64,000 nt of DNA, taken from the sequence record OP172784; one strand, written 5' to 3'. The translations under genes and the position numbers were made by a program. This DNA comes from Escherichia phage ECO07P1. Below the pieces are notes generated by a model that did no database searches, was not told the DNA's origin, and saw nothing but the letters and a program-made list of their open reading frames with translations. This document shows positions 2,680-25,204 of the stretch, piece by piece (position 1 is the first letter of the stretch; each line of letters starts with the position of its first letter).

Positions 2680-3060
2680 ATGAAAATCGCTATTTTGGTT
2701 ATTGCATTAGGTCTTACTGGTTGTGTAGCTCAAGGACCAGTAGTAAATCAGTCTGATGCAGGAAAAATTGTAAACTGTTCAAGCAAATTTTATAATCCTA
2801 ACGTCAAGTGTTATAAAGAGGCTCCAAAACAGACAGTAGAACAAATGCAGGCGAATTTTGACGAAGCTATTCGTCCAGATGAATCTGCTCAAGCATATCG
2901 TAATTCAGATGTAATTACACGCGAAGAAAAAATTGAAAGCTACTGCGCTGAACTTTGGGCTAATTGGGCTAATAATTATCAATGGCGTACTGGTAAAAAT
3001 GCTCCAATGGAGTATGTAGTGAATTCTTATAATTCATGTGTAAAAAATTTGACTAAGTGA
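2680..3060 (+). CDS. Putative lipoprotein (signal peptide with LTGC lipobox), conserved T4-like small ORF
   Basis: ATG at 2680 with GGAG SD (track ORF starts at upstream TTG 2668); N-terminal MKIAILVIALGLTGC. Confidence 0.5.
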   Translation: MKIAILVIALGLTGCVAQGPVVNQSDAGKIVNCSSKFYNPNVKCYKEAPKQTVEQMQANFDEAIRPDESAQAYRNSDVITREEKIESYCAELWANWANNYQWRTGKNAPMEYVVNSYNSCVKNLTK

Positions 3061-3067
3061 GGAAAAC

Positions 3068-3319
3068 ATGGAAACTTTAGTAGCAGGTTCAATTTTTATG
3101 GTTTTAGTTTCAGGCGTGTTGGCTATTATTATATACATGCTTCCATGGTTCATCGCCTTGATGCGTGGGTCAAAATCGACAGTAGGAATCTTTTTCACAT
3201 CTTTACTGTTTAACTGGTCAATTATTGGTTGGTTTATTACATTTATTTGGTCAATTGCAGGTGAAACTAAAAAGTCTGCGCAGCCAAATCAGGTAATTAT
3301 CATCAGAGAGAAGGAATGA
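3068..3319 (+). CDS. imm: Imm, superinfection immunity membrane protein (83 aa)
   Basis: 83-aa two-TM protein matching T4 Imm in length and position between 43 and 42. Confidence 0.8.
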   Translation: METLVAGSIFMVLVSGVLAIIIYMLPWFIALMRGSKSTVGIFFTSLLFNWSIIGWFITFIWSIAGETKKSAQPNQVIIIREKE

Positions 3320-3465
3320 AAAGCAAAATTATAGCAGCATTGCTTTTAATCTTGATGATTATAATAAGTATATACTATAGTGTAACGGTTCCTTGTATGA
3401 TTCCAACTATTATTTTAGGTTGGGGTTTATTACTGTTACAAGTTAAATATGAATGTATCAATTGA
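3316..3465 (+). CDS. Small hydrophobic membrane peptide (49 aa)
   Basis: ATG overlaps imm stop (ATGA); below the ORF-track size cutoff; hydrophobic throughout. Confidence 0.3.
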   Translation: MKSKIIAALLLILMIIISIYYSVTVPCMIPTIILGWGLLLLQVKYECIN

Positions 3466-3472
3466 GGTTTAA

Positions 3473-4213
3473 ATGATTAGTGACTCTATGACAGTTGAAG
3501 AAATCCGTCTTCATTTGGGAACTGCATTAAAGGAAAAAGATTTCGTAGTTGATAAAACTGGTGTTAAAACTATTGAAATTATTGGCGCATCATTTGTAGC
3601 AGATGAACCGTTTATTTTTGGCGCTCTTAATGATGAATACATTCAGCGTGAACTTGAATGGTATAAATCTAAGAGCTTGTTCGTTAAAGATATTCCGGGT
3701 GAAACACCGAAGATTTGGCAACAAGTAGCATCTTCTAAAGGTGAAATTAACTCAAATTATGGTTGGGCTATCTGGTCAGAAGATAACTATGCCCAGTATG
3801 ATATGTGTTTAGCTGAACTTGGTCAAAATCCTGATTCTCGACGTGGTATCATGATTTATACTCGTCCATCTATGCAGTTTGACTACAATAAAGATGGCAT
3901 GTCAGATTTCATGTGTACTAATACAGTACAGTACCTGATTCGTGATAAGAAAGTCAATGCAGTAGTAAGCATGCGCTCAAATGACGTGGTCTTCGGATTC
4001 CGTAATGATTATGCATGGCAAAAATACGTATTAGATAAATTAGTATCTGATTTGAATGCCGGCGATTCAACTCGTCAGTATAAAGCAGGTTCTATTATAT
4101 GGAATGTTGGAAGTCTTCATGTATATTCTCGTCATTTTTACTTGGTTGATCATTGGTGGAATACTGGCGAAACTCATATTGTGAAAAAAGATTATAATGG
4201 TGAGTGGAAATGA
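3473..4213 (+). CDS. 42: dCMP hydroxymethylase gp42 (246 aa)
   Basis: 246 aa, near-identical to remembered T4 gp42 (MISDSMTVEEIRLHLG...). Confidence 0.95.
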   Translation: MISDSMTVEEIRLHLGTALKEKDFVVDKTGVKTIEIIGASFVADEPFIFGALNDEYIQRELEWYKSKSLFVKDIPGETPKIWQQVASSKGEINSNYGWAIWSEDNYAQYDMCLAELGQNPDSRRGIMIYTRPSMQFDYNKDGMSDFMCTNTVQYLIRDKKVNAVVSMRSNDVVFGFRNDYAWQKYVLDKLVSDLNAGDSTRQYKAGSIIWNVGSLHVYSRHFYLVDHWWNTGETHIVKKDYNGEWK

Positions 4214-5052
4214 TTCAATTCGTAATTCCAAGTTATCAGCGTGTCGGGGCAGTTTCTGCCCTTAATATGTTTCCGACTGATTATGAACCCCATATTGTAG
4301 TGCGTGAACATGAAGAAAAAGCTTATTATGATGCTTATGGGTCTAGAGCTAAAATTATAGCTATTCCTGATGATGTTAATGGAATTGCCGGTACTCGTAA
4401 AGCAATTACTGATATGTATGCAGGTCAACGAATCTGGATGATTGATGATGATACTACTATTCGTATGAGTTCAATACGAAAGAGAGACGATAAACGGCGC
4501 GTAGATAAAATTAATCAATTAACTCGTGAACAGTTCTATGAATTGATTCAATACGTTGAGGATGCCATGGATTGCGGGTATTATCATGGCCATGCTCGTC
4601 TACCAATTTTTAAAATTACTTCATCTTGGGGTAATTATCGTGAAAACTCATATGGATTCACGAATACATGGTATGACCTCGGAAAACTTACGACAGAACA
4701 AATTGGGTATGGAAAAATTGATTTATGCGAAGATATGTATGCATTTCTCAATTTAATTAATCAAGGTTATCCGCATTTGGCCTTGTTCAAATATCTAGTT
4801 GTATCTGGAAAATCACACGCTCCCGGTGGGTGTAGTTCAATTCGTAGTAATTCTAAACATAATAGAGCGCTTGAGCAAATCAATAGAGAGTTTCCAGAGC
4901 AAGCTCGTTGGAAAACATCGAATATTGAAAAACGAAAATCGTTGGGTGAAGAAGATGAGCCATTAAAAGTTCTTCGCATGTGTGTTTCGCGTAAAGAAAA
5001 ATCAGAAGCGTTTCATAAGTTTAATGCTATTCATCCAATAGCAGTTGATTAA
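4210..5052 (+). CDS. Putative hydroxymethylcytosine glucosyltransferase, T2/T6 beta-glucosyl-HMC-alpha-glucosyltransferase type (280 aa)
   Basis: ATG at 4210 overlaps gene 42 stop (track ORF uses GTG at 4204); occupies the T4 beta-gt locus between 42 and uvsX; IWMIDDDTT acidic motif; 280 aa is the size I recall for T2/T6 beta-alpha-gt. Confidence 0.55.
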   Translation: MIQFVIPSYQRVGAVSALNMFPTDYEPHIVVREHEEKAYYDAYGSRAKIIAIPDDVNGIAGTRKAITDMYAGQRIWMIDDDTTIRMSSIRKRDDKRRVDKINQLTREQFYELIQYVEDAMDCGYYHGHARLPIFKITSSWGNYRENSYGFTNTWYDLGKLTTEQIGYGKIDLCEDMYAFLNLINQGYPHLALFKYLVVSGKSHAPGGCSSIRSNSKHNRALEQINREFPEQARWKTSNIEKRKSLGEEDEPLKVLRMCVSRKEKSEAFHKFNAIHPIAVD

Positions 5053-5129
5053 TGCCTAAATTTATTGTGTTATAATTACCCTATCTTTAACCAGTGAGGA
5101 AAATATAATGATGCCTATGGAAAAAATGA

Positions 5130-6311
5130 ATGTCTATTGCAGATTTAAAATCCCGTTTGATTAAAGCTTCCACTTCTAAAATGACTGCTGAACTGACTAC
5201 ATCTAAATTCTTTAATGAAAAGGATGTAATCCGTACAAAAATCCCAATGCTTAATATCGCTATTTCCGGTGCGATTGATGGCGGTATGCAGTCTGGTTTA
5301 ACTATTTTTGCAGGTCCTTCTAAACACTTTAAATCAAATATGTCTTTGACTATGGTTGCGGCGTATTTGAACAAATATCCGGACGCGGTTTGTCTATTTT
5401 ATGATAGCGAATTTGGTATTACTCCAGCTTATTTGCGATCCATGGGAGTTGACCCGGAACGAGTAATTCATACACCAATTCAGTCAGTTGAACAACTGAA
5501 AATTGATATGGTGAATCAGCTTGAAGCGATTGAGCGTGGTGAAAAAGTTATTGTATTCATCGACTCAATTGGTAATATGGCTTCCAAGAAAGAAACGGAA
5601 GATGCCTTGAATGAAAAATCTGTGGCAGATATGACTCGTGCTAAATCACTGAAGTCATTATTCCGTATTGTTACTCCTTATTTTAGTATTAAAAACATTC
5701 CATGCGTTGCGGTTAACCATACAATTGAAACAATTGAAATGTTTAGTAAAACCGTGATGACAGGTGGTACAGGCGTAATGTATTCGGCTGATACTGTATT
5801 CATTATCGGTAAGCGCCAGATTAAAGATGGTTCTGATCTTCAGGGGTATCAATTTGTTCTAAATGTAGAAAAATCTCGTACCGTCAAAGAAAAAAGTAAA
5901 TTCTTTATTGATGTTAAATTTGACGGTGGTATCGATCCTTATTCTGGATTATTAGATATGGCTCTTGAATTAGGATTTGTAGTAAAACCTAAAAATGGCT
6001 GGTATGCTCGTGAATTTCTTGATGAAGAAACCGGCGAGATGATTCGCGAAGAAAAATCTTGGCGTGCAAAAGATACCAATTGCACTACATTCTGGGGTCC
6101 TTTATTTAAACATCAGCCATTCCGAGATGCTATTAAACGTGCTTATCAGTTAGGTGCTATTGATAGCAATGAAATTGTTGAAGCTGAAGTTGATGAATTA
6201 ATTAACTCAAAGGTTGAAAAATTTAAATCTCCAGAAAGTAAAAGTAAATCAGCAGCTGATTTAGAAACTGACCTAGAACAGTTAAGTGATATGGAAGAAT
6301 TTAATGAATAA
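5130..6311 (+). CDS. uvsX: UvsX recombinase (RecA-like)
   Basis: 393 aa, near-identical to remembered T4 UvsX. Confidence 0.95.
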   Translation: MSIADLKSRLIKASTSKMTAELTTSKFFNEKDVIRTKIPMLNIAISGAIDGGMQSGLTIFAGPSKHFKSNMSLTMVAAYLNKYPDAVCLFYDSEFGITPAYLRSMGVDPERVIHTPIQSVEQLKIDMVNQLEAIERGEKVIVFIDSIGNMASKKETEDALNEKSVADMTRAKSLKSLFRIVTPYFSIKNIPCVAVNHTIETIEMFSKTVMTGGTGVMYSADTVFIIGKRQIKDGSDLQGYQFVLNVEKSRTVKEKSKFFIDVKFDGGIDPYSGLLDMALELGFVVKPKNGWYAREFLDEETGEMIREEKSWRAKDTNCTTFWGPLFKHQPFRDAIKRAYQLGAIDSNEIVEAEVDELINSKVEKFKSPESKSKSAADLETDLEQLSDMEEFNE

Positions 6312-8326: not shown

Positions 8327-8563
8327 ATGCATATTGTTTTATTTAAACCTACTCCGTATAATGTCAGGAAAAATACTCAATTCAAAGCACTTGTTGCAGA
8401 TACGTGGGAATTGGTGTTAGATATTCCACCAGAAGAAAGTCCTCCATCTGGTCGAGTGGAATTTATTAAGTTTGCTGTGCGCCCTACGAAGCGACAGATT
8501 CGCCAATGCAAAAGATACTTTCGTAAAATCGTCAAGTTAGAGAAACAGTTATTGATGCAGTAA
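8327..8563 (+). CDS. Hypothetical protein (T4 61.4 region)
   Basis: ATG at 8327 with GAGGG SD right after dmd stop; track ORF starts at 8285. Confidence 0.45.
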   Translation: MHIVLFKPTPYNVRKNTQFKALVADTWELVLDIPPEESPPSGRVEFIKFAVRPTKRQIRQCKRYFRKIVKLEKQLLMQ

Positions 8564-8570
8564 AATAGTA

Positions 8571-8600
8571 GTTTACAAGCTGATAGAGTTGTGTTATAGT
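8571..8600 (+). promoter_or_regulatory. T4-type early promoter
   Basis: GTTTAC 8571-8576, 18-bp spacer, TATAGT 8595-8600. Confidence 0.45.
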
Positions 8601-8631
8601 AATTCTATCAGCTAATCGCGGAGAAAAGAAA

Positions 8632-8886
8632 ATGATGCTAGTTAATAGAGAATATCAGTTTAAATCAGAAGAAGATTTGGAAAAATTCGCAAGTGGTTGT
8701 GAACTGAATAGACGCACAGCTAAAGTCATAGGATTAAAACCCTTTACAGTTCTAGATTGTGAAGTTTCTAAATTCCGCAGAGGGTGTTCTATTAGCGGTC
8801 ATGCTCTGGTTGATGGGAACACATTTTTCTTTGTTTTTAGCGTCAGAGAACTTTTATTGATTAACGAACTTGAGGAAATAAAATAG
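8632..8886 (+). CDS. Hypothetical protein
   Basis: 84-aa ORF with GGAG SD. Confidence 0.45.
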   Translation: MMLVNREYQFKSEEDLEKFASGCELNRRTAKVIGLKPFTVLDCEVSKFRRGCSISGHALVDGNTFFFVFSVRELLLINELEEIK

Positions 8887-10031: not shown

Positions 10032-11060
10032 ATGTCATCAATACCTTGGATTGATAATGAGTTTGCATATCGTGCATTAGCTCATTTACCTAAATTTACA
10101 CAAGTAAATAATAGTTCAACTTTTAAATTGCGGTTTAGATGCCCTGTTTGTGGAGATTCAAAAACCGACCAAAATAAAGCTCGTGGATGGTATTATGGCG
10201 ATAATAATGAAGGAAATATTCATTGTTATAACTGTAACTATCATGCACCAATCGGAATATATTTAAAGGAGTTTGAACCCGATTTATATCGTGAGTATAT
10301 CTTTGAAATAAGAAAAGAAAAAGGTAAAAGTCGTCCAGTAGAAAAACCTAAAGAACTTCCTAAACAACCTGAGAAGAAAATAATTAAATCTCTTCCGTCA
10401 TGTGTTAGATTAGATAAACTGGCGGAAGACCATCCAATTATAAAATATGTAAAAGCTCGTTGTATTCCAAAGGATAAATGGAAATATCTTTGGTTTACAA
10501 CCGAATGGCCTAAATTAGTTAATAGTATAGCACCAGGAACATACAAAAAGGAAATACCTGAGCCTCGTCTTGTTATTCCAATTTATAATGCTAATGGAAA
10601 AGCTGAGTCTTTTCAAGGACGTGCATTAAAGAAAGATGCTCCCCAAAAATATATCACCATCAAAGCTTATCCTGAAGCAACAAAAATCTATGGCGTTGAA
10701 CGAGTTAAAGATGGTGATGTATATGTTCTAGAAGGACCTATAGATTCACTTTTTATTGAAAATGGTATAGCTATTACAGGTGGTCAATTAGACCTAGAAA
10801 TTGTTCCATTTAAAGATAGACGTGTATGGGTTTTAGATAATGAACCTCGTCATCCTGACACTATTAAACGAATGACTAAATTGGTTGATGCAGGAGAAAG
10901 GGTTATGTTTTGGGACAAATCTCCCTGGAAATCAAAAGATGTTAATGATATGATTAGAAAGGAAGGTGCAACCCCTGAACAAATTATGGAATATATGAAA
11001 AATAATATTGCGCAGGGGTTGATGGCTAAAATGCGGCTATCTAAATATGCTAAGATTTAA
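10032..11060 (+). CDS. 61: gp61 DNA primase
   Basis: 342 aa; N-terminal zinc ribbon CPVCGDS...CYNCNYH; matches T4 gp61. Confidence 0.95.
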   Translation: MSSIPWIDNEFAYRALAHLPKFTQVNNSSTFKLRFRCPVCGDSKTDQNKARGWYYGDNNEGNIHCYNCNYHAPIGIYLKEFEPDLYREYIFEIRKEKGKSRPVEKPKELPKQPEKKIIKSLPSCVRLDKLAEDHPIIKYVKARCIPKDKWKYLWFTTEWPKLVNSIAPGTYKKEIPEPRLVIPIYNANGKAESFQGRALKKDAPQKYITIKAYPEATKIYGVERVKDGDVYVLEGPIDSLFIENGIAITGGQLDLEIVPFKDRRVWVLDNEPRHPDTIKRMTKLVDAGERVMFWDKSPWKSKDVNDMIRKEGATPEQIMEYMKNNIAQGLMAKMRLSKYAKI

Positions 11061-11257
11061 ATTAACCCAACTAAAGCAAATGCTAAATCTACGAATGTAT
11101 CAAGAGTAATTACTGGAATATTAACGCCATGAGCAATAGCAATTGGCGATAAAACAAAATTCCAAAGTAAAATTCCTACCATAGCAGAAATAGTAAAAGC
11201 TATACGTTTTTTATTACCTTTTATGGCATTAACAAGTGCCATTAATTTTTGTACCAT
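11057..11257 (-). CDS. Small two-TM membrane protein (66 aa), antisense to the surrounding early genes
   Basis: GGAGGA SD 3 nt upstream of ATG on - strand; late-promoter-like AATAAATA about 22 nt upstream; stop overlaps gene 61 stop. Confidence 0.4.
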   Translation of the reverse strand: MVQKLMALVNAIKGNKKRIAFTISAMVGILLWNFVLSPIAIAHGVNIPVITLDTFVDLAFALVGLI

Positions 11258-11327
11258 ATGTCCTCCTTATTGCTTTATATATTTATTGTATAATTAATCT
11301 ACTAATCCATGAATTGAAAGGATATAT

Positions 11328-11978
11328 GTGAATTACCAAAAAATTTACTCGGCTTTAATTACAAAAGCTAAATGCCGGCATCTTGGTGGATATAAAGAAC
11401 GCCATCATATAATTCCTAGATGTATGGGAGGAGCAGATGACAAAAACAATCTTGTTGAGTTAACTGCGCGTGAGCATTTTATAGCTCATAGATTATTAAC
11501 CAAAATATATCCAGATGTGAGAGGATTGCATTATGCTGTAAATTTAATGCGATATAATAAAGGTGTTAAATTAACAAGTAGATTAATAGAAACCCTTAAA
11601 ATTCAAAACTCTGTTCTTTTCTCGGGTGAAAATAATCCTAGATATGGCAAGCCGTCATGGATTAAAGGCAAAAAGACCCCAGAAGAAACTAAAGCCAAAA
11701 TGCGTCTAGCTCATAAAGGTAAAATTATATCCGATGAAGCCAAGGCTAATATGAGTAAAGCCCGAAAAGGAAGATTTAGCGGTAAAAATTCACCTCGATA
11801 TGGTTTACCGAATCCAAGACGTGGTGAGATATGGAATTCGTATGATTCGCTTTACGAGTTGTGGGTTTATAATAATAGACCTAAGCGCACAAAATTTAAT
11901 AAAATAGCTGTCAAGGCAGGTTATCCTAATATCTGCTATAGACATATGATAGAAAACTTCATAAGAAAGGAAAAATAA
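11328..11978 (+). CDS. Free-standing HNH homing endonuclease (216 aa), GTG start
   Basis: HNH motif ERHHIIPRCMGGADDKNNLVELTAREHFIAH; repeated NPRYG-type DNA-binding repeats; AAGGA SD before GTG. Confidence 0.8.
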   Translation: MNYQKIYSALITKAKCRHLGGYKERHHIIPRCMGGADDKNNLVELTAREHFIAHRLLTKIYPDVRGLHYAVNLMRYNKGVKLTSRLIETLKIQNSVLFSGENNPRYGKPSWIKGKKTPEETKAKMRLAHKGKIISDEAKANMSKARKGRFSGKNSPRYGLPNPRRGEIWNSYDSLYELWVYNNRPKRTKFNKIAVKAGYPNICYRHMIENFIRKEK

Positions 11979-11979
11979 C

Positions 11980-12498
11980 ATGCCACATTTCAACGAATGT
12001 AGTCATCTGATCGAAGGCGCTGATAAAGCTCAAAATGAATACTGGGATATTCTCGGTGATGAAAAAGACCCGCTGCAAGTTATGCTTGATATGCAGAAAT
12101 CTCTGCAGGTTCGTTTAGCTAAAGATAAACCTGAATATAACCGTCATCCTGATGATTTGGCTACTGCAGGTGAAGTTGTCGATTGGCTGCGTAATCAGAA
12201 AGATTACATTGATGATGAATTCCGCGAACTTCTGACTTCTCTTGGTGGTATGAGCAATGGTGAAAAAGATGCATCTGCTGTATGGAAGCCTTGGAAGTCG
12301 CAGCATGGTGAACGCCGTGAAACTCTAATTACTGATTTGTCTCCTCAAGACCAGTTGGAAATTAAATTCGAAATGATTGATATTCTTCATTTCGTTCTGA
12401 ACATGTTCCAAGGTCTCGGTCTTACGGCTGAAGAAATCTTTAAACTTTATTATCTGAAAAATGCTGAAAACTTTGCTCGTCAAGACCGAGGTTATTAA
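11980..12498 (+). CDS. 56: gp56 dCTPase/dUTPase (MazG-like)
   Basis: 172 aa matching T4 gp56. Confidence 0.9.
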   Translation: MPHFNECSHLIEGADKAQNEYWDILGDEKDPLQVMLDMQKSLQVRLAKDKPEYNRHPDDLATAGEVVDWLRNQKDYIDDEFRELLTSLGGMSNGEKDASAVWKPWKSQHGERRETLITDLSPQDQLEIKFEMIDILHFVLNMFQGLGLTAEEIFKLYYLKNAENFARQDRGY

Positions 12499-12532
12499 TA
12501 TAAATGACGGCTTAAAAGCTGTGAGAATTTAT

Positions 12533-12540
12533 TATAAATA
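12533..12540 (+). promoter_or_regulatory. T4 late promoter TATAAATA upstream of soc
   Basis: Exact TATAAATA about 30 nt upstream of soc ATG. Confidence 0.5.
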
Positions 12541-15021: not shown

Positions 15022-15645
15022 ATGATTATTAATCTTGCAGATGTTGAACAGTTATCTATAAAAGCTGAAAGCGTTGATTTTCAATATGATATGTATAAAA
15101 AGGTCTGTGAAAAATTTACTGACTTTGAACAGTCAGTTCTTTGGCAATGTATGGAAGCCAAAAAGAATGAAGCTCTTCATCGGCAGTTGAATAAAATCAT
15201 TAAAAAGCATTTAACTAAATCGCCTTATCAGCTATATCGTGGTATATCAAAATCGACAAAAGAACTCATTAAAGATTTACAAGTTGGAGAAGTGTTTTCA
15301 ACGAACAGAGTAGATTCATTTACTACTAGTTTGCATACAGCGTGTTCTTTTTCTTATGCTGAATATTTCACTGAAATAGTACTTCGCTTAAAAACTGATA
15401 AAGCTTTTAATTACTCTGACCATATCAGCGATATTATACTTTCTTCTCCTAATACTGAGTTTAAGTATACATATGAAGATACTGATGGATTAGATTCAGA
15501 ACGTACTGATAACTTAATGATGATTGTACATGAACAAGAATGGATGATTCCAATTGGAAAGTATAAAATAACTTCTATTTCAAAAGAAAAATTACACGAT
15601 TCGTTTGGAACATTTAAAGTGTATGATATTGAGGTAGTTGAATGA
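15022..15645 (+). CDS. modB: ModB ADP-ribosyltransferase (207 aa)
   Basis: R-S-E ART signature (YRGIS, FTTSL, EQEWMIP); ATG at 15022 with GGAGG SD; size and order as T4 ModB. Confidence 0.7.
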   Translation: MIINLADVEQLSIKAESVDFQYDMYKKVCEKFTDFEQSVLWQCMEAKKNEALHRQLNKIIKKHLTKSPYQLYRGISKSTKELIKDLQVGEVFSTNRVDSFTTSLHTACSFSYAEYFTEIVLRLKTDKAFNYSDHISDIILSSPNTEFKYTYEDTDGLDSERTDNLMMIVHEQEWMIPIGKYKITSISKEKLHDSFGTFKVYDIEVVE

Positions 15646-16244
15646 AATATTCAGCAATGCAATTAAAAGATTTTAAAATCAAATCAATGGATGCATCGGT
15701 GCGTGCTTCTATTCGTGAAGAATTACTTTCTGAAGGATTTAATTTATCCGAAATTGAACTTTTAATTCATTGTATTACTAATAAGCCAGACGATCATTCT
15801 TGGTTAAATGAAATAATCAAATCTCGTTTGGAACCAAACGATAAACCTCTTTGGAGAGGTGTTCCAGTTGAGACTAAGCAGGTGTTAAATCAAGGAATTG
15901 ATATTATTACATTTGATAAAGTAGTATCAGCTTCATATGATAAAAATATAGCTCTACATTTTGCTTCTGGATTAGAATACAATACACAAGTTATTTTTGA
16001 ATTCAAAGCTCCTATGGTATTTAATTTCCAGGAGTATGCTATAAAAGCTCTACGTTGTAAAGAATATAGTCCAAGTTTTAAGTTTCCAGATAGCCATCGC
16101 TATCGTAATATGGAATTAGTTTCAGATGAACAAGAAGTAATGATACCAGCTGGAAGTGTATTTAGAATTGCGGATAGATATGAGTATAAAAAGTATTCAA
16201 CATACACTATCTATACTCTTGACTTTGAAGGATTTAATCTATAA
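15642..16244 (+). CDS. modA: ModA ADP-ribosyltransferase (200 aa)
   Basis: R-S-E ART signature (LWRGV, SASYD, EQEVMIP); paralogue of the upstream gene. Confidence 0.7.
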   Translation: MKYSAMQLKDFKIKSMDASVRASIREELLSEGFNLSEIELLIHCITNKPDDHSWLNEIIKSRLEPNDKPLWRGVPVETKQVLNQGIDIITFDKVVSASYDKNIALHFASGLEYNTQVIFEFKAPMVFNFQEYAIKALRCKEYSPSFKFPDSHRYRNMELVSDEQEVMIPAGSVFRIADRYEYKKYSTYTIYTLDFEGFNL

Positions 16245-16300
16245 TGGAAGGACTTAGATTCATTATACCATGAAAGTTTTAAAGCATTTTTCATAAAGTT

Positions 16301-16330
16301 GTTTACAATCTGAAGTAAAAATGTTATAGT
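16301..16330 (+). promoter_or_regulatory. T4-type early promoter upstream of srd
   Basis: GTTTAC 16301-16306, 18-bp spacer, TATAGT. Confidence 0.45.
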
Positions 16331-16359
16331 ATAAGTAGTTAACCGTCCGTGAGAAAAAT

Positions 16360-17106
16360 ATGAAACTGTCTAATAATCAAATTCGTAAAATTACACGTCG
16401 TTTAGAGCACACTCAGGCATCTGCCAAAAGACGTTCTAAAGATTTTAACTTAGACTTCAATTACATTAAGAACATTTTAGATCAGAAAGTTTGCGCTTAC
16501 TCAGGAGAACCTTTTGATAATCGTATTGAAGGAGAGAAATTATCATTAGAACGTTTTGATAATAACGTTGGATACATTAAAGGGAATGTTATTGCAGTAA
16601 AGAAAAAGTATAATACATTTCGTTCTGATTATACTTTAGAAGAGTTGATTGAAAAGCGTGATTTATTTGCTTTGCGAATTGGTCGTTCATCTGCGAAAAA
16701 AGTTCATAAACTAAATTTAGATGAAAAGAAATGGGCTAAAATCAAAAAGACTTATAATCAAATTAAAGCTATACAGAAAAAACGTGAAAACCGAATTGAG
16801 CACATTTCTCAGCTTTCTAAATCAAAACAAACTTCTGACGTTAAGCTAACGATTATAGCACTCAAAGCTCGTATTGATGGTTCTCGTATAGCAGAAGGCG
16901 CTGAAGTTGTTAAATTGAACGTTCTTCTTAAAGGCTCTGATTGGAAAACCGTGAAAAAGTTGTCAGAAGCAGAAATGCAATATGATATGTGTGATAAAAT
17001 TATTCAAGGTGTAGAGCGGTATCAAAACTTGTCTTTTATTGATAAACTTAAACTGAAAAGAGGATACCCGCTAAATTGTTCAATTTTTAAACTTATCCGA
17101 GGATAA
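16360..17106 (+). CDS. srd: Srd-like protein (248 aa), basic/lysine-rich
   Basis: Position between modA and dda as in T4; size consistent with Srd. Confidence 0.55.
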   Translation: MKLSNNQIRKITRRLEHTQASAKRRSKDFNLDFNYIKNILDQKVCAYSGEPFDNRIEGEKLSLERFDNNVGYIKGNVIAVKKKYNTFRSDYTLEELIEKRDLFALRIGRSSAKKVHKLNLDEKKWAKIKKTYNQIKAIQKKRENRIEHISQLSKSKQTSDVKLTIIALKARIDGSRIAEGAEVVKLNVLLKGSDWKTVKKLSEAEMQYDMCDKIIQGVERYQNLSFIDKLKLKRGYPLNCSIFKLIRG

Positions 17107-17107
17107 T

Positions 17108-17419
17108 ATGTTTTATGTATATGCGATAGTGTATAGAGATAAAGATGGATTTGCGGTGCCTGTTCCGCTTGATGAACATCGTCCTGCTGTATTTTTTGAA
17201 AGGGAGATTGCTGATAAAGTTTTTACAACTCTTAAAGAGCAGTATCGACTAGCTTTAGGTATGGGAATTCCGAGATTAGTTGAGACTCCACGAAAGTTTT
17301 GGTTTAATAAAATAGAAGTTAAACACGTTAAGCCTGATGTAGACACGCAAAGATTATATCGGCGAATTTTAGATACTGGGCGTATTGTTAGTATACCAAT
17401 TGCAGGGAATTTACGATGA
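17108..17419 (+). CDS. Hypothetical protein (T4 dda.1 position)
   Basis: 103-aa ORF immediately upstream of dda. Confidence 0.5.
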   Translation: MFYVYAIVYRDKDGFAVPVPLDEHRPAVFFEREIADKVFTTLKEQYRLALGMGIPRLVETPRKFWFNKIEVKHVKPDVDTQRLYRRILDTGRIVSIPIAGNLR

Positions 17420-18735
17420 CATTTGATGATTTGACAGAAGGCCAGAAAAATGCCTTTAACATCGTTATGAGGGCTATTAAAGAAAAGAAACATCATGTAA
17501 CTATTAATGGACCTGCTGGTACTGGTAAGACTACTCTTACTAAGTTCATCATTGAAGCCTTAATATCTACGGGCGAAACTGGCATTATTTTAGCAGCTCC
17601 TACTCATGCAGCTAAAAAGATTCTTTCAAAACTGTCAGGGAAAGAAGCGAGTACTATTCACAGTATTCTCAAAATTAACCCAGTAACATATGAAGAAAAC
17701 GTTCTTTTTGAGCAAAAAGAAGTACCGGATTTGGCTAAATGCAGAGTATTAATCTGCGACGAAGTGTCAATGTATGATAGAAAGCTATTTAAAATTTTGC
17801 TTTCAACTATTCCCCCATGGTGTACTATAATTGGAATAGGCGATAATAAGCAAATTAGACCTGTTGACCCAGGAGAAAACACTGCTTATATCAGTCCATT
17901 CTTTACACATAAAGATTTTTATCAGTGTGAACTCACTGAAGTTAAACGCAGTAATGCTCCTATTATTGATGTAGCTACTGATGTTCGTAATGGTAAGTGG
18001 ATTTATGATAAAATTGTTGACGGGCATGGAGTACGTGGATTTACTGGTGATACCGCTTTACGCGATTTTATGGTAAATTATTTTTCAATCGTAAAATCAC
18101 TAGATGATTTGTTTGAAAATCGCGTAATGGCATTTACGAATAAATCTGTTGATAAGTTAAATAGCATTATTCGCAAAAAGATTTTTGAAACTGATAAAGA
18201 TTTTATCGTTGGTGAAATTATTGTAATGCAGGAACCATTAATTAAAACATATAAAATTGATGGAAAGCCTGTGTCAGAAATTATTTTTAATAACGGACAA
18301 TTAGTTCGTATTATAGAAGCAGAGTATACATCAACGTTTGTTAAAGCTCGTGGTGTTTCTGGAGAATATCTAATTCGTCATTGGGATTTAACAGTAGAAA
18401 CTTACGGCGATGATGAATATTATCGTGAAAAGATTAAAATAATTTCATCTGATGAAGAGCTGTATAAGTTTAACTTATTTTTAGGTAAAACGGCGGAAAC
18501 TTATAAAAATTGGAATAAAGGTGGAAAAGCTCCATGGAGTGATTTTTGGGATGCTAAATCGCAGTTTAGTAAAGTGAAAGCACTTCCTGCATCAACATTC
18601 CATAAAGCTCAGGGCATGTCTGTAGACCGTGCTTTTATCTATACGCCTTGTATTCATTATGCAGATGCTGAACTAGCTCAGCAGCTTCTTTATGTTGGTG
18701 TAACACGTGGTCGTTATGATGTGTTTTACGTATGA
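17416..18735 (+). CDS. dda: Dda DNA helicase (SF1B)
   Basis: 439 aa, Walker A GPAGTGKTT; near-identical to T4 Dda. Confidence 0.95.
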   Translation: MTFDDLTEGQKNAFNIVMRAIKEKKHHVTINGPAGTGKTTLTKFIIEALISTGETGIILAAPTHAAKKILSKLSGKEASTIHSILKINPVTYEENVLFEQKEVPDLAKCRVLICDEVSMYDRKLFKILLSTIPPWCTIIGIGDNKQIRPVDPGENTAYISPFFTHKDFYQCELTEVKRSNAPIIDVATDVRNGKWIYDKIVDGHGVRGFTGDTALRDFMVNYFSIVKSLDDLFENRVMAFTNKSVDKLNSIIRKKIFETDKDFIVGEIIVMQEPLIKTYKIDGKPVSEIIFNNGQLVRIIEAEYTSTFVKARGVSGEYLIRHWDLTVETYGDDEYYREKIKIISSDEELYKFNLFLGKTAETYKNWNKGGKAPWSDFWDAKSQFSKVKALPASTFHKAQGMSVDRAFIYTPCIHYADAELAQQLLYVGVTRGRYDVFYV

Positions 18736-23386: not shown

Positions 23387-25204
23387 ATGATTAAGAATGA
23401 AATTAAAATTCTGAGCGATATTGAACATATCAAAAAGCGTAGCGGCATGTATATTGGCTCTTCTGCTAATGAAATGCATGAGCGCTTTCTGTTTGGTAAA
23501 TGGGAAAGTGTTCAGTATGTACCTGGTCTTGTTAAGCTTATTGATGAAATTATCGATAACTCAGTAGATGAAGGTATTCGTACTAAGTTTAAATTCGCGA
23601 ATAAAATTAATGTTACTATTAAAAACAATCAAGTAACAGTTGAAGATAACGGTCGTGGTATTCCACAGGCGATGGTTAAAACACCTACCGGTGAAGAAAT
23701 TCCTGGTCCTGTTGCTGCATGGACTATTCCAAAAGCAGGTGGTAACTTCGGTGATGACAAAGAACGCGTCACTGGCGGTATGAACGGTGTTGGTTCTAGT
23801 TTAACTAACATTTTTTCTGTGATGTTTGTCGGTGAAACTGGCGACGGTCAAAATAATATTGTAGTTCGTTGTTCAAACGGCATGGAAAATAAATCATGGG
23901 AAACTATTCCTGGAAAATGGAAAGGAACTCGCGTTACTTTCATTCCTGATTTTATGTCATTTGAAACTAATGAGCTATCTCAAGTTTATCTTGACATTAC
24001 ACTAGATCGTCTCCAGACACTTGCAGTAGTTTATCCTGATATTCAATTTACCTTTAATGGTAAAAAGGTTCAGGGCAATTTTAAGAAGTATGCACGCCAG
24101 TATGATGAGCATGCTATCGTTCAAGAACAGGAAAATTGCTCTATTGCGGTTGGTCGTTCACCTGATGGTTTTCGTCAATTAACATACGTCAATAACATTC
24201 ATACTAAGAATGGTGGTCATCACATTGACTGTGTTATGGATGATATTTGTGAAGACCTTATTCCACAAATCAAACGTAAATTTAAAATTGATGTAACTAA
24301 AGCACGTGTTAAAGAATGTTTGACTATCGTTATGTTTGTTCGTGATATGAAAAACATGCGATTTGATTCTCAAACTAAAGAGCGTTTGACTTCTCCATTT
24401 GGTGAAATTCGTAGTCATATTCAGCTTGATGCTAAAAAGATTTCACGTGCTATTTTAAATAATGAAGCAATTTTAATGCCAATTATTGAAGCTGCTTTGG
24501 CTCGTAAATTGGCGGCAGAAAAAGCGGCAGAAACTAAAGCAGCTAAAAAGGCTTCTAAAGCTAAGGTTCATAAACATATTAAAGCGAATCTTTGTGGTAA
24601 AGATGCTGACACTACTCTTTTCTTGACTGAGGGTGATTCCGCTATCGGATATCTTATTGATGTTCGTGATAAAGAACTTCATGGTGGTTATCCATTACGT
24701 GGTAAAGTTCTCAACAGTTGGGGTATGTCATATGCTGATATGCTTAAAAACAAAGAACTGTTTGATATTTGCGCAATCACTGGATTAGTTCTTGGTGAAA
24801 AAGCCGAAAACTTGAATTATCATAATATTGCTATTATGACCGATGCTGACCATGATGGTCTAGGAAGCATTTATCCTTCTCTGCTCGGATTTTTTAGTAA
24901 TTGGCCAGAACTGTTTGAACAAGGAAGAATTCGCTTTGTCAAAACTCCTGTAATCATCGCTCAGGTCGGTAAAAAACAAGAATGGTTTTATACAGTCGCT
25001 GAATATGAGAGTGCTAAAGATGCTCTACCTAAACATAGCATCCGTTATATTAAGGGACTTGGCTCTTTGGAAAAATCTGAATATCGTGAGATGATTCAAA
25101 ATCCAGTATATGATGTTGTTAAACTTCCTGAGAACTGGAAAGAGCTTTTTGAAATGCTCATGGGAGATAATGCTGACCTTCGTAAAGAATGGATGAGTCA
25201 GTAG
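23387..25204 (+). CDS. 39: Topoisomerase II large subunit gp39, uninterrupted (contains the region encoded by T4 gene 60)
   Basis: 605 aa; GyrB-like ATPase N-terminus; C-terminal third is continuous with the sequence I recall for T4 gp60 (NIAIMTDADHDGLGSIYPSLLGFF...). Confidence 0.9.
   Translation: MIKNEIKILSDIEHIKKRSGMYIGSSANEMHERFLFGKWESVQYVPGLVKLIDEIIDNSVDEGIRTKFKFANKINVTIKNNQVTVEDNGRGIPQAMVKTPTGEEIPGPVAAWTIPKAGGNFGDDKERVTGGMNGVGSSLTNIFSVMFVGETGDGQNNIVVRCSNGMENKSWETIPGKWKGTRVTFIPDFMSFETNELSQVYLDITLDRLQTLAVVYPDIQFTFNGKKVQGNFKKYARQYDEHAIVQEQENCSIAVGRSPDGFRQLTYVNNIHTKNGGHHIDCVMDDICEDLIPQIKRKFKIDVTKARVKECLTIVMFVRDMKNMRFDSQTKERLTSPFGEIRSHIQLDAKKISRAILNNEAILMPIIEAALARKLAAEKAAETKAAKKASKAKVHKHIKANLCGKDADTTLFLTEGDSAIGYLIDVRDKELHGGYPLRGKVLNSWGMSYADMLKNKELFDICAITGLVLGEKAENLNYHNIAIMTDADHDGLGSIYPSLLGFFSNWPELFEQGRIRFVKTPVIIAQVGKKQEWFYTVAEYESAKDALPKHSIRYIKGLGSLEKSEYREMIQNPVYDVVKLPENWKELFEMLMGDNADLRKEWMSQ

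What the first reader, a model, noticed from the sequence alone, without database searches (positions are those of the whole stretch)
11328..11978. Free-standing HNH endonuclease between primase 61 and dCTPase 56
A 216-aa protein with a clear HNH motif and repeated NPRYG-like DNA-binding repeats lies between genes 61 and 56 and starts at GTG. My recollection is that T4 carries the dam methyltransferase in this interval. No ORF in the whole window has a DPPY-type methyltransferase motif. This is consistent with a mobile endonuclease replacing or displacing a gene in the interval.
Basis: partly seen in the sequence, partly recalled or inferred. Interest (0 to 1): 0.6.

Follow-up and report, generated by a model that had tools for sequence, protein, structure and literature searches.

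The report
Mob-like HNH homing endonuclease upstream of gene 56
This is an intact, selfish "homing" nuclease gene of a well-known T4 type, wedged between the promoter/ribosome-binding site and the start codon of the essential dCTPase gene 56; it did not replace the dam methylase, whose absence is a separate and common polymorphism.

Summary
Window 11328-11978 (+) is a real 216-aa GTG-start gene with an intact HNH motif and two NUMOD3 (NxPRYG) repeats, lying between primase gene 61 and dCTPase gene 56 of a Tequatrovirus (100% identical to Escherichia phage ECO07P3). T4 carries dam in this interval, and ECO07P3 has no Dam homologue anywhere.

The interpretation that the nuclease replaced dam is not supported. 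The two indels occupy different slots about 60 bp apart, and all four combinations exist:
- neither gene: about 294 database records
- dam only: about 180
- HNH only: about 57

The gene is a free-standing, promoterless Mob-family homing endonuclease cassette; its N-terminus is 65% identical to T4 MobE. It sits between the Shine-Dalgarno sequence and the ATG of gene 56, downstream of the homologue of T4 middle promoter P56/69, and is flanked by a GAAAGGA repeat.

Evidence for mobility:
- patchy distribution
- the same site in four genera
- 92% nucleotide identity to a Klebsiella Jiaodavirus copy whose flanking genes are only 56-77% identical
- dN/dS of 0.05-0.15
- a linked variant of the first codons of gene 56 that also occurs at some empty sites.

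Verdict: an ordinary new member of a known kind, already annotated "homing endonuclease" in relatives but biochemically uncharacterised.

The parts
11328..11978 (+). Free-standing Mob-like HNH homing endonuclease gene (216 aa, GTG start, TAA stop at 11976-11978)
   Evidence: ORF. PHROG 655 E 4e-60. Pfam NUMOD3 above threshold and HNH just below. 65% identical to T4 MobE over aa 1-81. dN/dS 0.05-0.15, and 12 of 12 orthologues intact.
11397..11489 (+). HNH (His-Me finger) catalytic core: E24, H26, H27, N41, E49, H50, H54
   Evidence: These residues are invariant in the 49-sequence alignment A1; coordinates. The AF2 model shows strand 24-27, strand 42-45 and helix 47-60 with pLDDT above 90.
11625..11810 (+). 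Two NUMOD3 DNA-binding repeats (NNPRYG aa 102-107, NSPRYG aa 154-159)
   Evidence: Pfam NUMOD3, 2 stretches, 29.3 bits against a gathering score of 20.4. Motif positions.
11703..11960 (+). C-terminal putative target-recognition region (aa 126-211), shared with the C-terminus of the GIY-YIG endonuclease SegA of T4
   Evidence: BLASTP 32% identity over 87 aa, E 2e-9 (tblastn). It is the most conserved part among orthologues of four genera. Model confidence is low (pLDDT 43-62).
11269..11294 (+). MotA-box middle promoter (ATTGCTTTA, 11-bp spacer, TATAAT), homologue of T4 P56/69; drives the HNH-56 transcript
   Evidence: The sequence matches the consensus (a/t)(a/t)(a/t)TGCTTtA at 12+/-1 bp from TAtaaT given in PMC2988021. 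T4 P56/69 has a mapped start at 16813, 28 nt upstream of the gene 56 ATG, and aligns to this position. Coordinates.
11316..11322 (+). Left copy of the GAAAGGA repeat: the original SD of gene 56, now serving the HNH gene; left insertion junction
   Evidence: Empty sites read GAATTGAAAGGAAAAATAATG(56); occupied sites read GAATTGAAAGGA|TATATGTG....
11965..11978 (+). Right copy GAAAGGAAAAATAA inside the last codons of the HNH gene: supplies the SD for gene 56; right insertion junction
   Evidence: It is identical to the SD-spacer of empty sites, so the cassette regenerates the translation signals of gene 56.
11979..11991 (+). HNH-linked variant of the gene 56 start (C ATG CCA CAT TTC, against ATG GCW TAC TTT at empty sites and ATG GCT CAC TTT in T4)
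   Evidence: Apart from the left-junction columns, these are the only positions with no shared allele between 8 HNH+ and 6 HNH- Tequatrovirus loci, among 318 polymorphic columns. The same allele occurs in HNH+ Jiaodavirus and at some empty sites (Sf23, TB004, KPV15).
11980..12498 (+). Gene 56 (dCTPase/dUTPase): downstream cistron and presumed target gene of the endonuclease
   Evidence: PHROG 173 and Pfam dUTPase_2. The HNH gene lies immediately upstream of gene 56 in Tequatrovirus, Jiaodavirus, Kanagawavirus and Dhakavirus, whatever the upstream neighbour.
11057..11257 (-). Conserved 66-aa hydrophobic ORF on the opposite strand (context; not part of the cassette); dam, when present, is inserted between it and the P56 promoter
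   Evidence: PHROG 2024 E 5e-31. Strong SD AAGGAGG. Present in all relatives examined and intact but unannotated in T4.

Best explanation
The gene encodes an active, site-specific HNH homing endonuclease of the T4 Mob family that propagates by intron-less homing at the 5' end of the essential gene 56.

Anatomy (shown). It is a roughly 650-bp promoterless cassette, bounded by a GAAAGGA repeat. It sits between the Shine-Dalgarno sequence and the ATG of gene 56. It uses the pre-existing MotA-dependent middle promoter (the homologue of T4 P56/69) and the original SD for itself. It carries a replacement SD for gene 56 in its own last codons, so the essential downstream gene stays expressed.

Mechanism (inferred from the characterised relatives MobE, I-HmuI and I-TevIII). 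During mixed infection the protein binds a long target in or near the start of gene 56 of a co-infecting phage that lacks the cassette. Binding is through its NUMOD3 repeats and its SegA-like C-terminal module. The HNH centre (H26/H27/N41/H50/H54) then nicks or cuts the DNA. T4-type recombination-dependent repair copies the cassette, plus a short flanking tract that includes the CCA-CAT-TTC variant of the first codons of gene 56, from the donor. Occupied genomes are protected because the insertion, the linked codon changes, or both, alter the site.

Dam absence is an independent polymorphism of the neighbouring slot.
For: Identity and intactness:
- PHROG 655 E 4e-60.
- 65% identity to T4 MobE, 47% to MobB and 35-54% to MobC over the catalytic domain.
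- Invariant HH-N-H-H residues.
- dN/dS of 0.05-0.15 across orthologues from four genera, with 12 of 12 reading frames intact.

Precise, repeated insertion site:
- All occupied Tequatrovirus loci share identical junctions, whether dam is present or not.
- The gene lies directly upstream of gene 56 in four genera, with three different upstream neighbours.

Patchy distribution:
- About 60-69 of several hundred T4-like records carry it.
- 22 of about 137 close Jiaodavirus records carry it.

Horizontal transfer:
- The window and Klebsiella phage KP1079 share 92% nucleotide identity in the HNH gene (blocks of 96-99%), against 68% in gene 61, 56% in the reverse ORF and 77% in gene 56.

Narrow linked tract:
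- The only alleles fixed between 8 HNH+ and 6 HNH- loci lie at the junctions and in codons 2-4 of gene 56.

Expression context:
- A 9/9 MotA-box match with TATAAT at the position of the mapped T4 promoter P56/69.

Precedent:
- MobE is promoterless and makes a strand-specific nick in nrdB of T2, driving its own inheritance (PMC2790892).
- SegF targets gene 56 from the other side (PMC2988022).
Against: No cleavage, nicking or homing has been demonstrated for this protein, and I found no paper describing it.

The target site is not identified. The divergent orthologues in Kanagawavirus and Dhakavirus coexist with ATG-GCN-type gene 56 starts, so the CCA variant is not a universal immunity determinant.

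The CCA allele also occurs at empty sites. The association could therefore be simple linkage or target preference.

Confidence: 0.75

Rival explanations
1. One reading: the endonuclease gene physically replaced dam, for example through a cut-and-repair event that swapped dam for the HEG.
For: T4 has dam in the 61-56 interval and the window does not. HNH is under-represented on dam+ backgrounds: 3/183 against 35/329, odds ratio 0.14.
Against: The slots are different and separated by the P56 promoter. ELT1 and IME537 carry dam plus the same HNH gene with identical junctions. 294 records have neither gene, with the same dam-less junction as the window. The association test ignores phylogeny and duplicate records.
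Confidence: 0.07
2. It is a domesticated or non-homing nuclease or DNA-binding protein kept for a phage function rather than for its own spread. Possible functions are exclusion of competing phages, stimulation of recombination or replication near oriA, and regulation of gene 56.
For: There is strong purifying selection (dN/dS 0.05-0.15). The position is conserved next to gene 56 and the region of the T4 oriA origin. A recent report shows that a T-even HEG (SegB) can benefit the phage by amplifying anti-defence loci (PMC13096335 abstract).
Against: It is absent from about 90% of close relatives. The inter-genus transfer signature and the occupied/empty site polymorphism are what a selfish element predicts. 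Purifying selection is also expected for an actively homing HEG.
Confidence: 0.12
3. It is a defunct HEG remnant persisting by linkage to the essential gene 56, like T4 mobA or I-TevIII.
For: There is no biochemical evidence of activity. The GTG start could mean low expression. PYPS2T has a one-base insertion that changes the last codons.
Against: The catalytic residues are invariant, no frameshifts or stops occur in 12 orthologues, and dN/dS is far below 1. There is recent spread between genera.
Confidence: 0.06

Closest known systems
T4 MobE (free-standing HNH homing endonuclease between nrdA and nrdB)
   Same: The catalytic N-terminal domain is 65% identical over aa 1-81 (E 1e-33). Both are free-standing, promoterless and dependent on an upstream promoter. 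Both lie next to an essential nucleotide-metabolism gene and have a patchy distribution among T-even phages (PMC2790892; PMC2988022).
   Different: The locus differs (upstream of gene 56, not nrdA/nrdB). The C-terminal half is different. No internal terminator or RBS-sequestering hairpin was detected here. Its activity is untested, whereas MobE-dependent nicking of T2 nrdB has been mapped.
T4 SegF (GIY-YIG homing endonuclease between 56 and soc, target gene 56)
   Same: Both are intron-less homing elements that flank and, presumably here, target the same essential gene 56 (PMC2988022 Table 1).
   Different: The catalytic family is unrelated (GIY-YIG against HNH) and the element lies on the opposite side of gene 56. 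segF is absent from the window. T4's own gene 56 is only 75.5% identical to the window's gene 56, while the flanks are 93-97% identical.
T4 SegA (GIY-YIG homing endonuclease between uvsX and beta-gt)
   Same: The C-terminal roughly 85 residues (a NUMOD3 repeat plus a terminal W..E.W...K.A..AG.PN..Y..M.E.F module) are homologous: 32% identity, E 2e-9.
   Different: The nuclease domains are different. This illustrates module shuffling between HEG families rather than orthology.
I-HmuI / I-TevIII (intron-encoded HNH endonucleases with NUMOD modules)
   Same: The architecture is the same: an N-terminal HNH domain followed by extended DNA-binding repeats. Nicking (I-HmuI, from my own knowledge) or dimer-mediated double-strand cleavage (I-TevIII, PMC1865063 abstract) are the likely chemistries.
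   Different: Those are intron-encoded. No significant sequence hit to any solved structure was found.

Membership tests
HNH / His-Me finger endonucleases | Catalytic motif: general-base His, structural Asn and metal-ligand His residues in H-N-H(-H) spacing | tested here: met
   H26-H27, N41, H50 and H54 are invariant in 49 homologues. The spacings of 14, 9 and 4 residues resemble the colicin-type HH-N-H-H pattern (resemblance from my own knowledge).
HNH / His-Me finger endonucleases | Match to the curated Pfam HNH model (PF01844) at its gathering score | tested here: not met
   18.4 bits against a gathering score of 21.4, E 0.0025. This is a near miss, as is common for phage Mob-type HNH domains.
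HNH / His-Me finger endonucleases | Beta-beta-alpha-metal fold | tested here: inconclusive
T4 Mob family of free-standing HNH homing endonuclease genes | Sequence similarity of the catalytic domain to MobA-E | tested here: met
   MobE 65% (E 1e-33), MobB 47% (E 3e-21), MobC 35% (E 4e-18) and the MobA fragment 67%. MobD was not compared.
T4 Mob family of free-standing HNH homing endonuclease genes | Free-standing, intergenic and promoterless; co-transcribed from a host-gene promoter | tested here: met
   It lies between the SD and the ATG of gene 56, downstream of the P56/69 homologue. The scan found no consensus sigma-70 site between the reverse ORF and the GTG. Transcription itself was not measured.
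Homing endonuclease genes (functional definition) | Presence/absence polymorphism at one precise site among close relatives | tested here: met
   The junctions are identical in 8 Tequatrovirus and 2 Jiaodavirus occupied loci. Empty sites occur in 6 Tequatrovirus and 2 Jiaodavirus loci, plus Sf23 and TB004.
Homing endonuclease genes (functional definition) | Evidence of horizontal spread independent of flanking genes | tested here: met
   The HNH gene is 92% identical between Tequatrovirus and Jiaodavirus, against 56-77% for the flanking genes.
Homing endonuclease genes (functional definition) | Site-specific cleavage of the HEG-less allele and endonuclease-dependent unidirectional gene conversion | not testable with these tools
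   This requires biochemistry and phage crosses. No publication on this protein was found.
NUMOD3-containing nuclease DNA-binding modules | Match to Pfam PF07460 above its gathering score | tested here: met
   29.3 bits against 20.4, in two stretches.
   The slots are separate, and dam and HNH coexist in ELT1 and IME537.

The most novel reading that the evidence does not exclude
The three site states are: susceptible-looking empty (ATG GCW TAC TTT); occupied (HNH plus ATG CCA CAT TTC); and empty but carrying the HNH-linked allele, including Sf23, whose site equals a precise excision between the GAAAGGA repeats. Together they would capture a complete homing cycle (invasion, fixation, loss, resistance) at an essential gene. 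That gene is attacked from both ends by unrelated HEGs: this HNH upstream, and SegF or another HNH downstream. Homing from dam-less donors would co-convert away the adjacent dam gene and move the P56/oriA primer promoter about 650 bp from the origin. The HEG would then be actively shaping the methylation status and origin architecture of T-even phages.
Probability: 0.15. Interest if true: 0.5.

Novelty: new member of a known kind. Interest (0 to 1): 0.3.

Why it matters
For phage biology this is mostly bookkeeping. It adds one more Mob-type HEG, at a locus not listed among the fifteen T4 HEGs (PMC2988022). It corrects an appealing but wrong inference about dam.

It has modest value as a clean natural example:
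- Gene 56 is now seen to be flanked by HEGs of two families.
- The cassette shows how a HEG can slip between an SD and a start codon while regenerating the SD.
- There is clear Tequatrovirus-Jiaodavirus transfer.
- The occupied, empty and scar-like alleles give ready-made substrates for mapping the specificity of a new HNH enzyme.

If the enzyme proves specific, it could serve as a marker-exclusion tool in T-even phage engineering.

Tried and rejected
1. I suspected that the 'NTP pyrophosphohydrolase' fragment upstream of the HNH gene in Kosakonia phage 305 was a partial duplicate of gene 56 left by homing. Translation shows it is a different small MazG-like gene, so I rejected this.

3. An RBS-sequestering hairpin like that of mobE: the 5' region folds no better than shuffled sequence (z 0.11).

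4. The generic sigma-70/terminator scan found nothing meaningful upstream of the gene and no more promoter-like sites than shuffled sequence gives. The promoter was recognised only by comparison with the T4 MotA-box consensus and the mapped P56/69 promoter.

5. IMG/VR yielded only 5 related loci, so population counts rest on the GenBank phage collection.

6. 'Perfect' association of the CCA-CAT-TTC allele with the HNH gene: it holds in my first 14 Tequatrovirus loci but is broken by the empty sites of Sf23, TB004 and KPV15. It cannot be claimed as an immunity determinant.

7. A literature search found no description of this specific HEG. Belle et al. 2002 on SegF was not available.

Full report
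**What is there**

Window 11328-11978 (+) is an open reading frame of 216 codons that starts at GTG and ends at TAA. AAAGGA (within GAAAGGA, 11316-11322) lies 5 nt upstream of the GTG. The next in-frame ATG falls inside the catalytic motif, so the GTG is the only sensible start. Orthologues in other genera begin with ATG at the homologous codon, which confirms it.

The whole window is 100% identical to Escherichia phage ECO07P3 (OP172786.1, Tequatrovirus) and runs across the ends of that linear record. The neighbours are:
- primase gene 61 (10032-11060)
- a conserved 66-aa hydrophobic ORF on the opposite strand (11057-11257)
- dCTPase gene 56 (11980-12498).

**What the protein is**

PHROG 655 'homing endonuclease' matches at E 4e-60. 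Pfam NUMOD3 is above threshold (29.3 against 20.4 bits, two stretches). Pfam HNH is just below (18.4 against 21.4 bits).

A database search returned 3037 homologues at E of 1e-5 or better. Most share only the N-terminal ~70% of the protein. In a 49-sequence alignment E24, H26, H27, P30, G35, N41, E49, H50 and H54 are invariant, which is an intact HH-N-H-H centre.

Against T4 proteins, residues 1-81 are 65% identical to MobE, 47% to MobB and 35-54% to MobC. Residues 126-211 are homologous to the C-terminus of the GIY-YIG endonuclease SegA (32% identity, E 2e-9). The protein is therefore a mosaic of known HEG modules.

AlphaFold2 models the first ~150 residues confidently, with a strand-strand-helix at the motif, but not the C-terminus. 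Fold searches were uninformative.

The gene is single-copy in ECO07P3 and is its only Mob-type HNH gene.

**Anatomy of the insertion**

I aligned the 61-56 interval of the window with EC121, T4, ELT1 and IME537, and then with 9 more Tequatrovirus loci. The alignment shows two independent indels.

- Dam, when present, lies between the reverse 66-aa ORF and a promoter.
- The HNH cassette lies downstream of that promoter.

Empty sites read GAATTGAAAGGAAAAATAATG(56). Occupied sites read GAATTGAAAGGA|TATATGTG...HNH...AGAAAGGA|AAAATAACATG(56).

The cassette therefore sits between the SD and the ATG of gene 56. It takes over the original SD. It also carries a copy of GAAAGGAAAAATAA in its own last codons, which restores the SD for gene 56 (GAAAGGA at 11316-11322 and 11965-11971).

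The promoter (ATTGCTTTA at 11269-11277, 11-bp spacer, TATAAT at 11289-11294) matches the T4 MotA-box consensus and spacing given in PMC2988021. It aligns with T4 middle promoter P56/69, whose start is mapped at T4 16813, 28 nt upstream of gene 56. The cassette is thus promoterless and becomes the first cistron of the P56 middle transcript. That is the pattern described for mobA, mobC, mobD, mobE, segC, segF and segG (PMC2988022).

No RBS hairpin was detected, and no plus-strand terminator inside the gene.

**Dam**

T4 has dam at 16846-17625, between 61 and 56. The window, and the whole ECO07P3 genome, have no Dam homologue (tblastn best E 1.1) and no DPPY-type methyltransferase ORF.

Dam absence is nevertheless not linked mechanistically to the HNH gene. 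All four combinations exist:
- neither gene: EC121, P922, ECp13, ECO4, KFS-EC3
- dam only: T4
- HNH only: the window, JE01, Killian, G4498, 235Ecol030PP, PYPS2T
- both: ELT1 and IME537, with the same HNH junctions.

Database counts:

| Arrangement | Records |
|---|---|
| dam (total) | 183 |
| dam-HNH junction | 3 (ELT1, IME537 twice) |
| HNH without dam | about 57, of which 22 Klebsiella phages |
| empty dam-less, HNH-less junction | 294 |

HNH is less frequent on dam+ backgrounds (3/183) than on dam- backgrounds (35/329). The odds ratio is 0.14 and Fisher p is 7e-5. The records are not independent, and clade structure or co-conversion from dam-less donors could both produce this result.

**Evidence for mobility**

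1. Patchiness. Only 69 records hold a full-length copy, among several hundred T4-like records that share the locus. In Jiaodavirus, 22 of about 137 close records hold it.

2. Site fidelity across genera. The gene lies directly upstream of gene 56 in four genera:
   - Tequatrovirus
   - Jiaodavirus (KP1079)
   - Kanagawavirus (Kosakonia phage 305, where the upstream neighbour is a small MazG-like gene)
   - Dhakavirus (ABTNLS3).

3. Horizontal transfer. Identities between the window and KP1079 are 68% (gene 61), 56% (reverse ORF) and 77% (gene 56), but 92% for the HNH gene, with 100-nt blocks at 96-99%.

4. Selection. dN/dS is 0.05-0.15 in nine pairwise comparisons, and 12 of 12 copies are intact with all catalytic residues.

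**The linked allele of gene 56**

Among 318 polymorphic alignment columns from gene 61 to the end of gene 56, few positions share no allele between 8 HNH+ and 6 HNH- Tequatrovirus loci. They are the left-junction columns and 11983, 11988 and 11991, plus 11986 when T4 is excluded.
- HNH+ loci read C ATG CCA CAT TTC.
- HNH- loci read ATG GCW TAC TTT.
- T4 reads ATG GCT CAC TTT.

HNH+ Jiaodavirus phages carry the same CCA allele.

The allele is not confined to occupied sites. It is also found at the empty sites of KPV15 (Jiaodavirus), TB004 (Tequatrovirus, dam+) and Sf23 (Tequatrovirus, dam-). The Sf23 site, GAAAGGAAAAATAACATGCCACATTTC, is exactly what precise deletion between the two GAAAGGA repeats would leave.

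Other empty Jiaodavirus sites (the KpnM6E1/JD18 type) read ATG GCA CAC TTT. The divergent orthologues in Kanagawavirus and Dhakavirus coexist with ATG GCN starts.

Two readings remain open:
- CCA is a co-converted or immunity allele, and CCA-type empties are loss scars.
- CCA marks the allele the enzyme prefers to invade.

Only cleavage assays can decide between them.

**Mechanism proposed**

The closest characterised relative is MobE, which makes a strand-specific nick in T2 nrdB and shows HNH-dependent super-Mendelian inheritance (PMC2790892). SegF homes at the other end of gene 56 (PMC2988022).

By analogy, I infer that the protein nicks or cuts HNH-less genomes in or near the 5' end of gene 56 during co-infection, and is copied in by recombinational repair together with a short flank. 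The anatomy, the distribution and the transfer are shown. The enzymatic activity and the target are inferred.

**Context worth noting**

T4's annotated oriA lies 22 nt inside gene 56. [quoted passage not shown] In HNH+ phages that promoter is ~650 bp further from gene 56. Any effect on origin function is speculation.

**Novelty and verdict**

Relatives' GenBank records already annotate this gene as 'homing endonuclease', 'HNH endonuclease' or 'putative mobile endonuclease D'. The ECO07P3 record itself calls it hypothetical. The family and its way of life are textbook for T-even phages.

I found no experimental or descriptive paper on this particular element. It is a new, uncharacterised member of a known kind. 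Interest is low to moderate.

Noticed in passing
window 11057-11257 (-); T4 NC_000866 about 17700-17900 (+): A conserved 66-aa hydrophobic ORF (PHROG 2024, strong AAGGAGG SD) is encoded on the strand opposite to all its neighbours, overlapping the end of gene 61 by 4 nt. It is intact but unannotated in the T4 reference, and is annotated 'putative holin' or 'membrane protein' in some relatives.
   Followed up: partly
L003 (IME537, NC_054921.1) 3049-3609: IME537 has an extra 186-aa ORF immediately upstream of dam with a weak, sub-threshold Pfam hit to the DpnII (GATC) restriction endonuclease (E 0.0045). A GATC endonuclease next to a GATC methylase would be a restriction-modification pair in a T4-like phage. 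Unverified.
   Followed up: partly
window 11980-12498 against T4 16270-16785: Gene 56 of the window (and of EC121, Sf23 and 235Ecol030PP) is only about 75% identical to T4 gene 56, while neighbouring genes are 93-97% identical. T4's allele is the outlier and is the one linked to segF, which the window lacks.
   Followed up: partly
L020 (Yersinia phage PYPS2T) 2990-3260: PYPS2T carries the HNH gene upstream of gene 56 and a second, different HNH-type endonuclease gene (EAHHILPKC motif, unrelated to SegF) directly downstream, so gene 56 is sandwiched between two HEGs. PYPS2T also has a one-base insertion that extends the upstream HNH ORF into gene 56.
   Followed up: partly
window 4195-5142: T4's beta-gt plus segA (about 1.9 kb) are replaced by a 282-aa ORF (4204-5052) matching Pfam TAGT (TET-associated glycosyltransferase). 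This is probably a T2/T6-type glucosyltransferase. segA is absent.
   Followed up: partly
window 24804-24869 against T4 2793-3911: The T4 segment holding the 5' part of gene 60 with its bypass region, 60.1 and mobA has no blastn counterpart here. This suggests an unsplit topoisomerase large-subunit gene, as in phages lacking the mobA cassette. The window also lacks segF (12498-12533 against T4 15610-16270).
   Followed up: no
window 8550-8879: A roughly 330-bp insertion relative to T4, between the counterparts of 61.4 and sp, holds an 84-aa ORF (8632-8886) with no Pfam match.
   Followed up: no
L031 (Shigella phage Sf23) 1290-1340; L032 (TB004); L028 (KPV15): These are empty 61-56 sites that carry the HNH-linked start of gene 56 (ATGCCACATTTC). 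Sf23 matches exactly the product of a deletion between the two GAAAGGA repeats that flank the cassette.
   Followed up: yes
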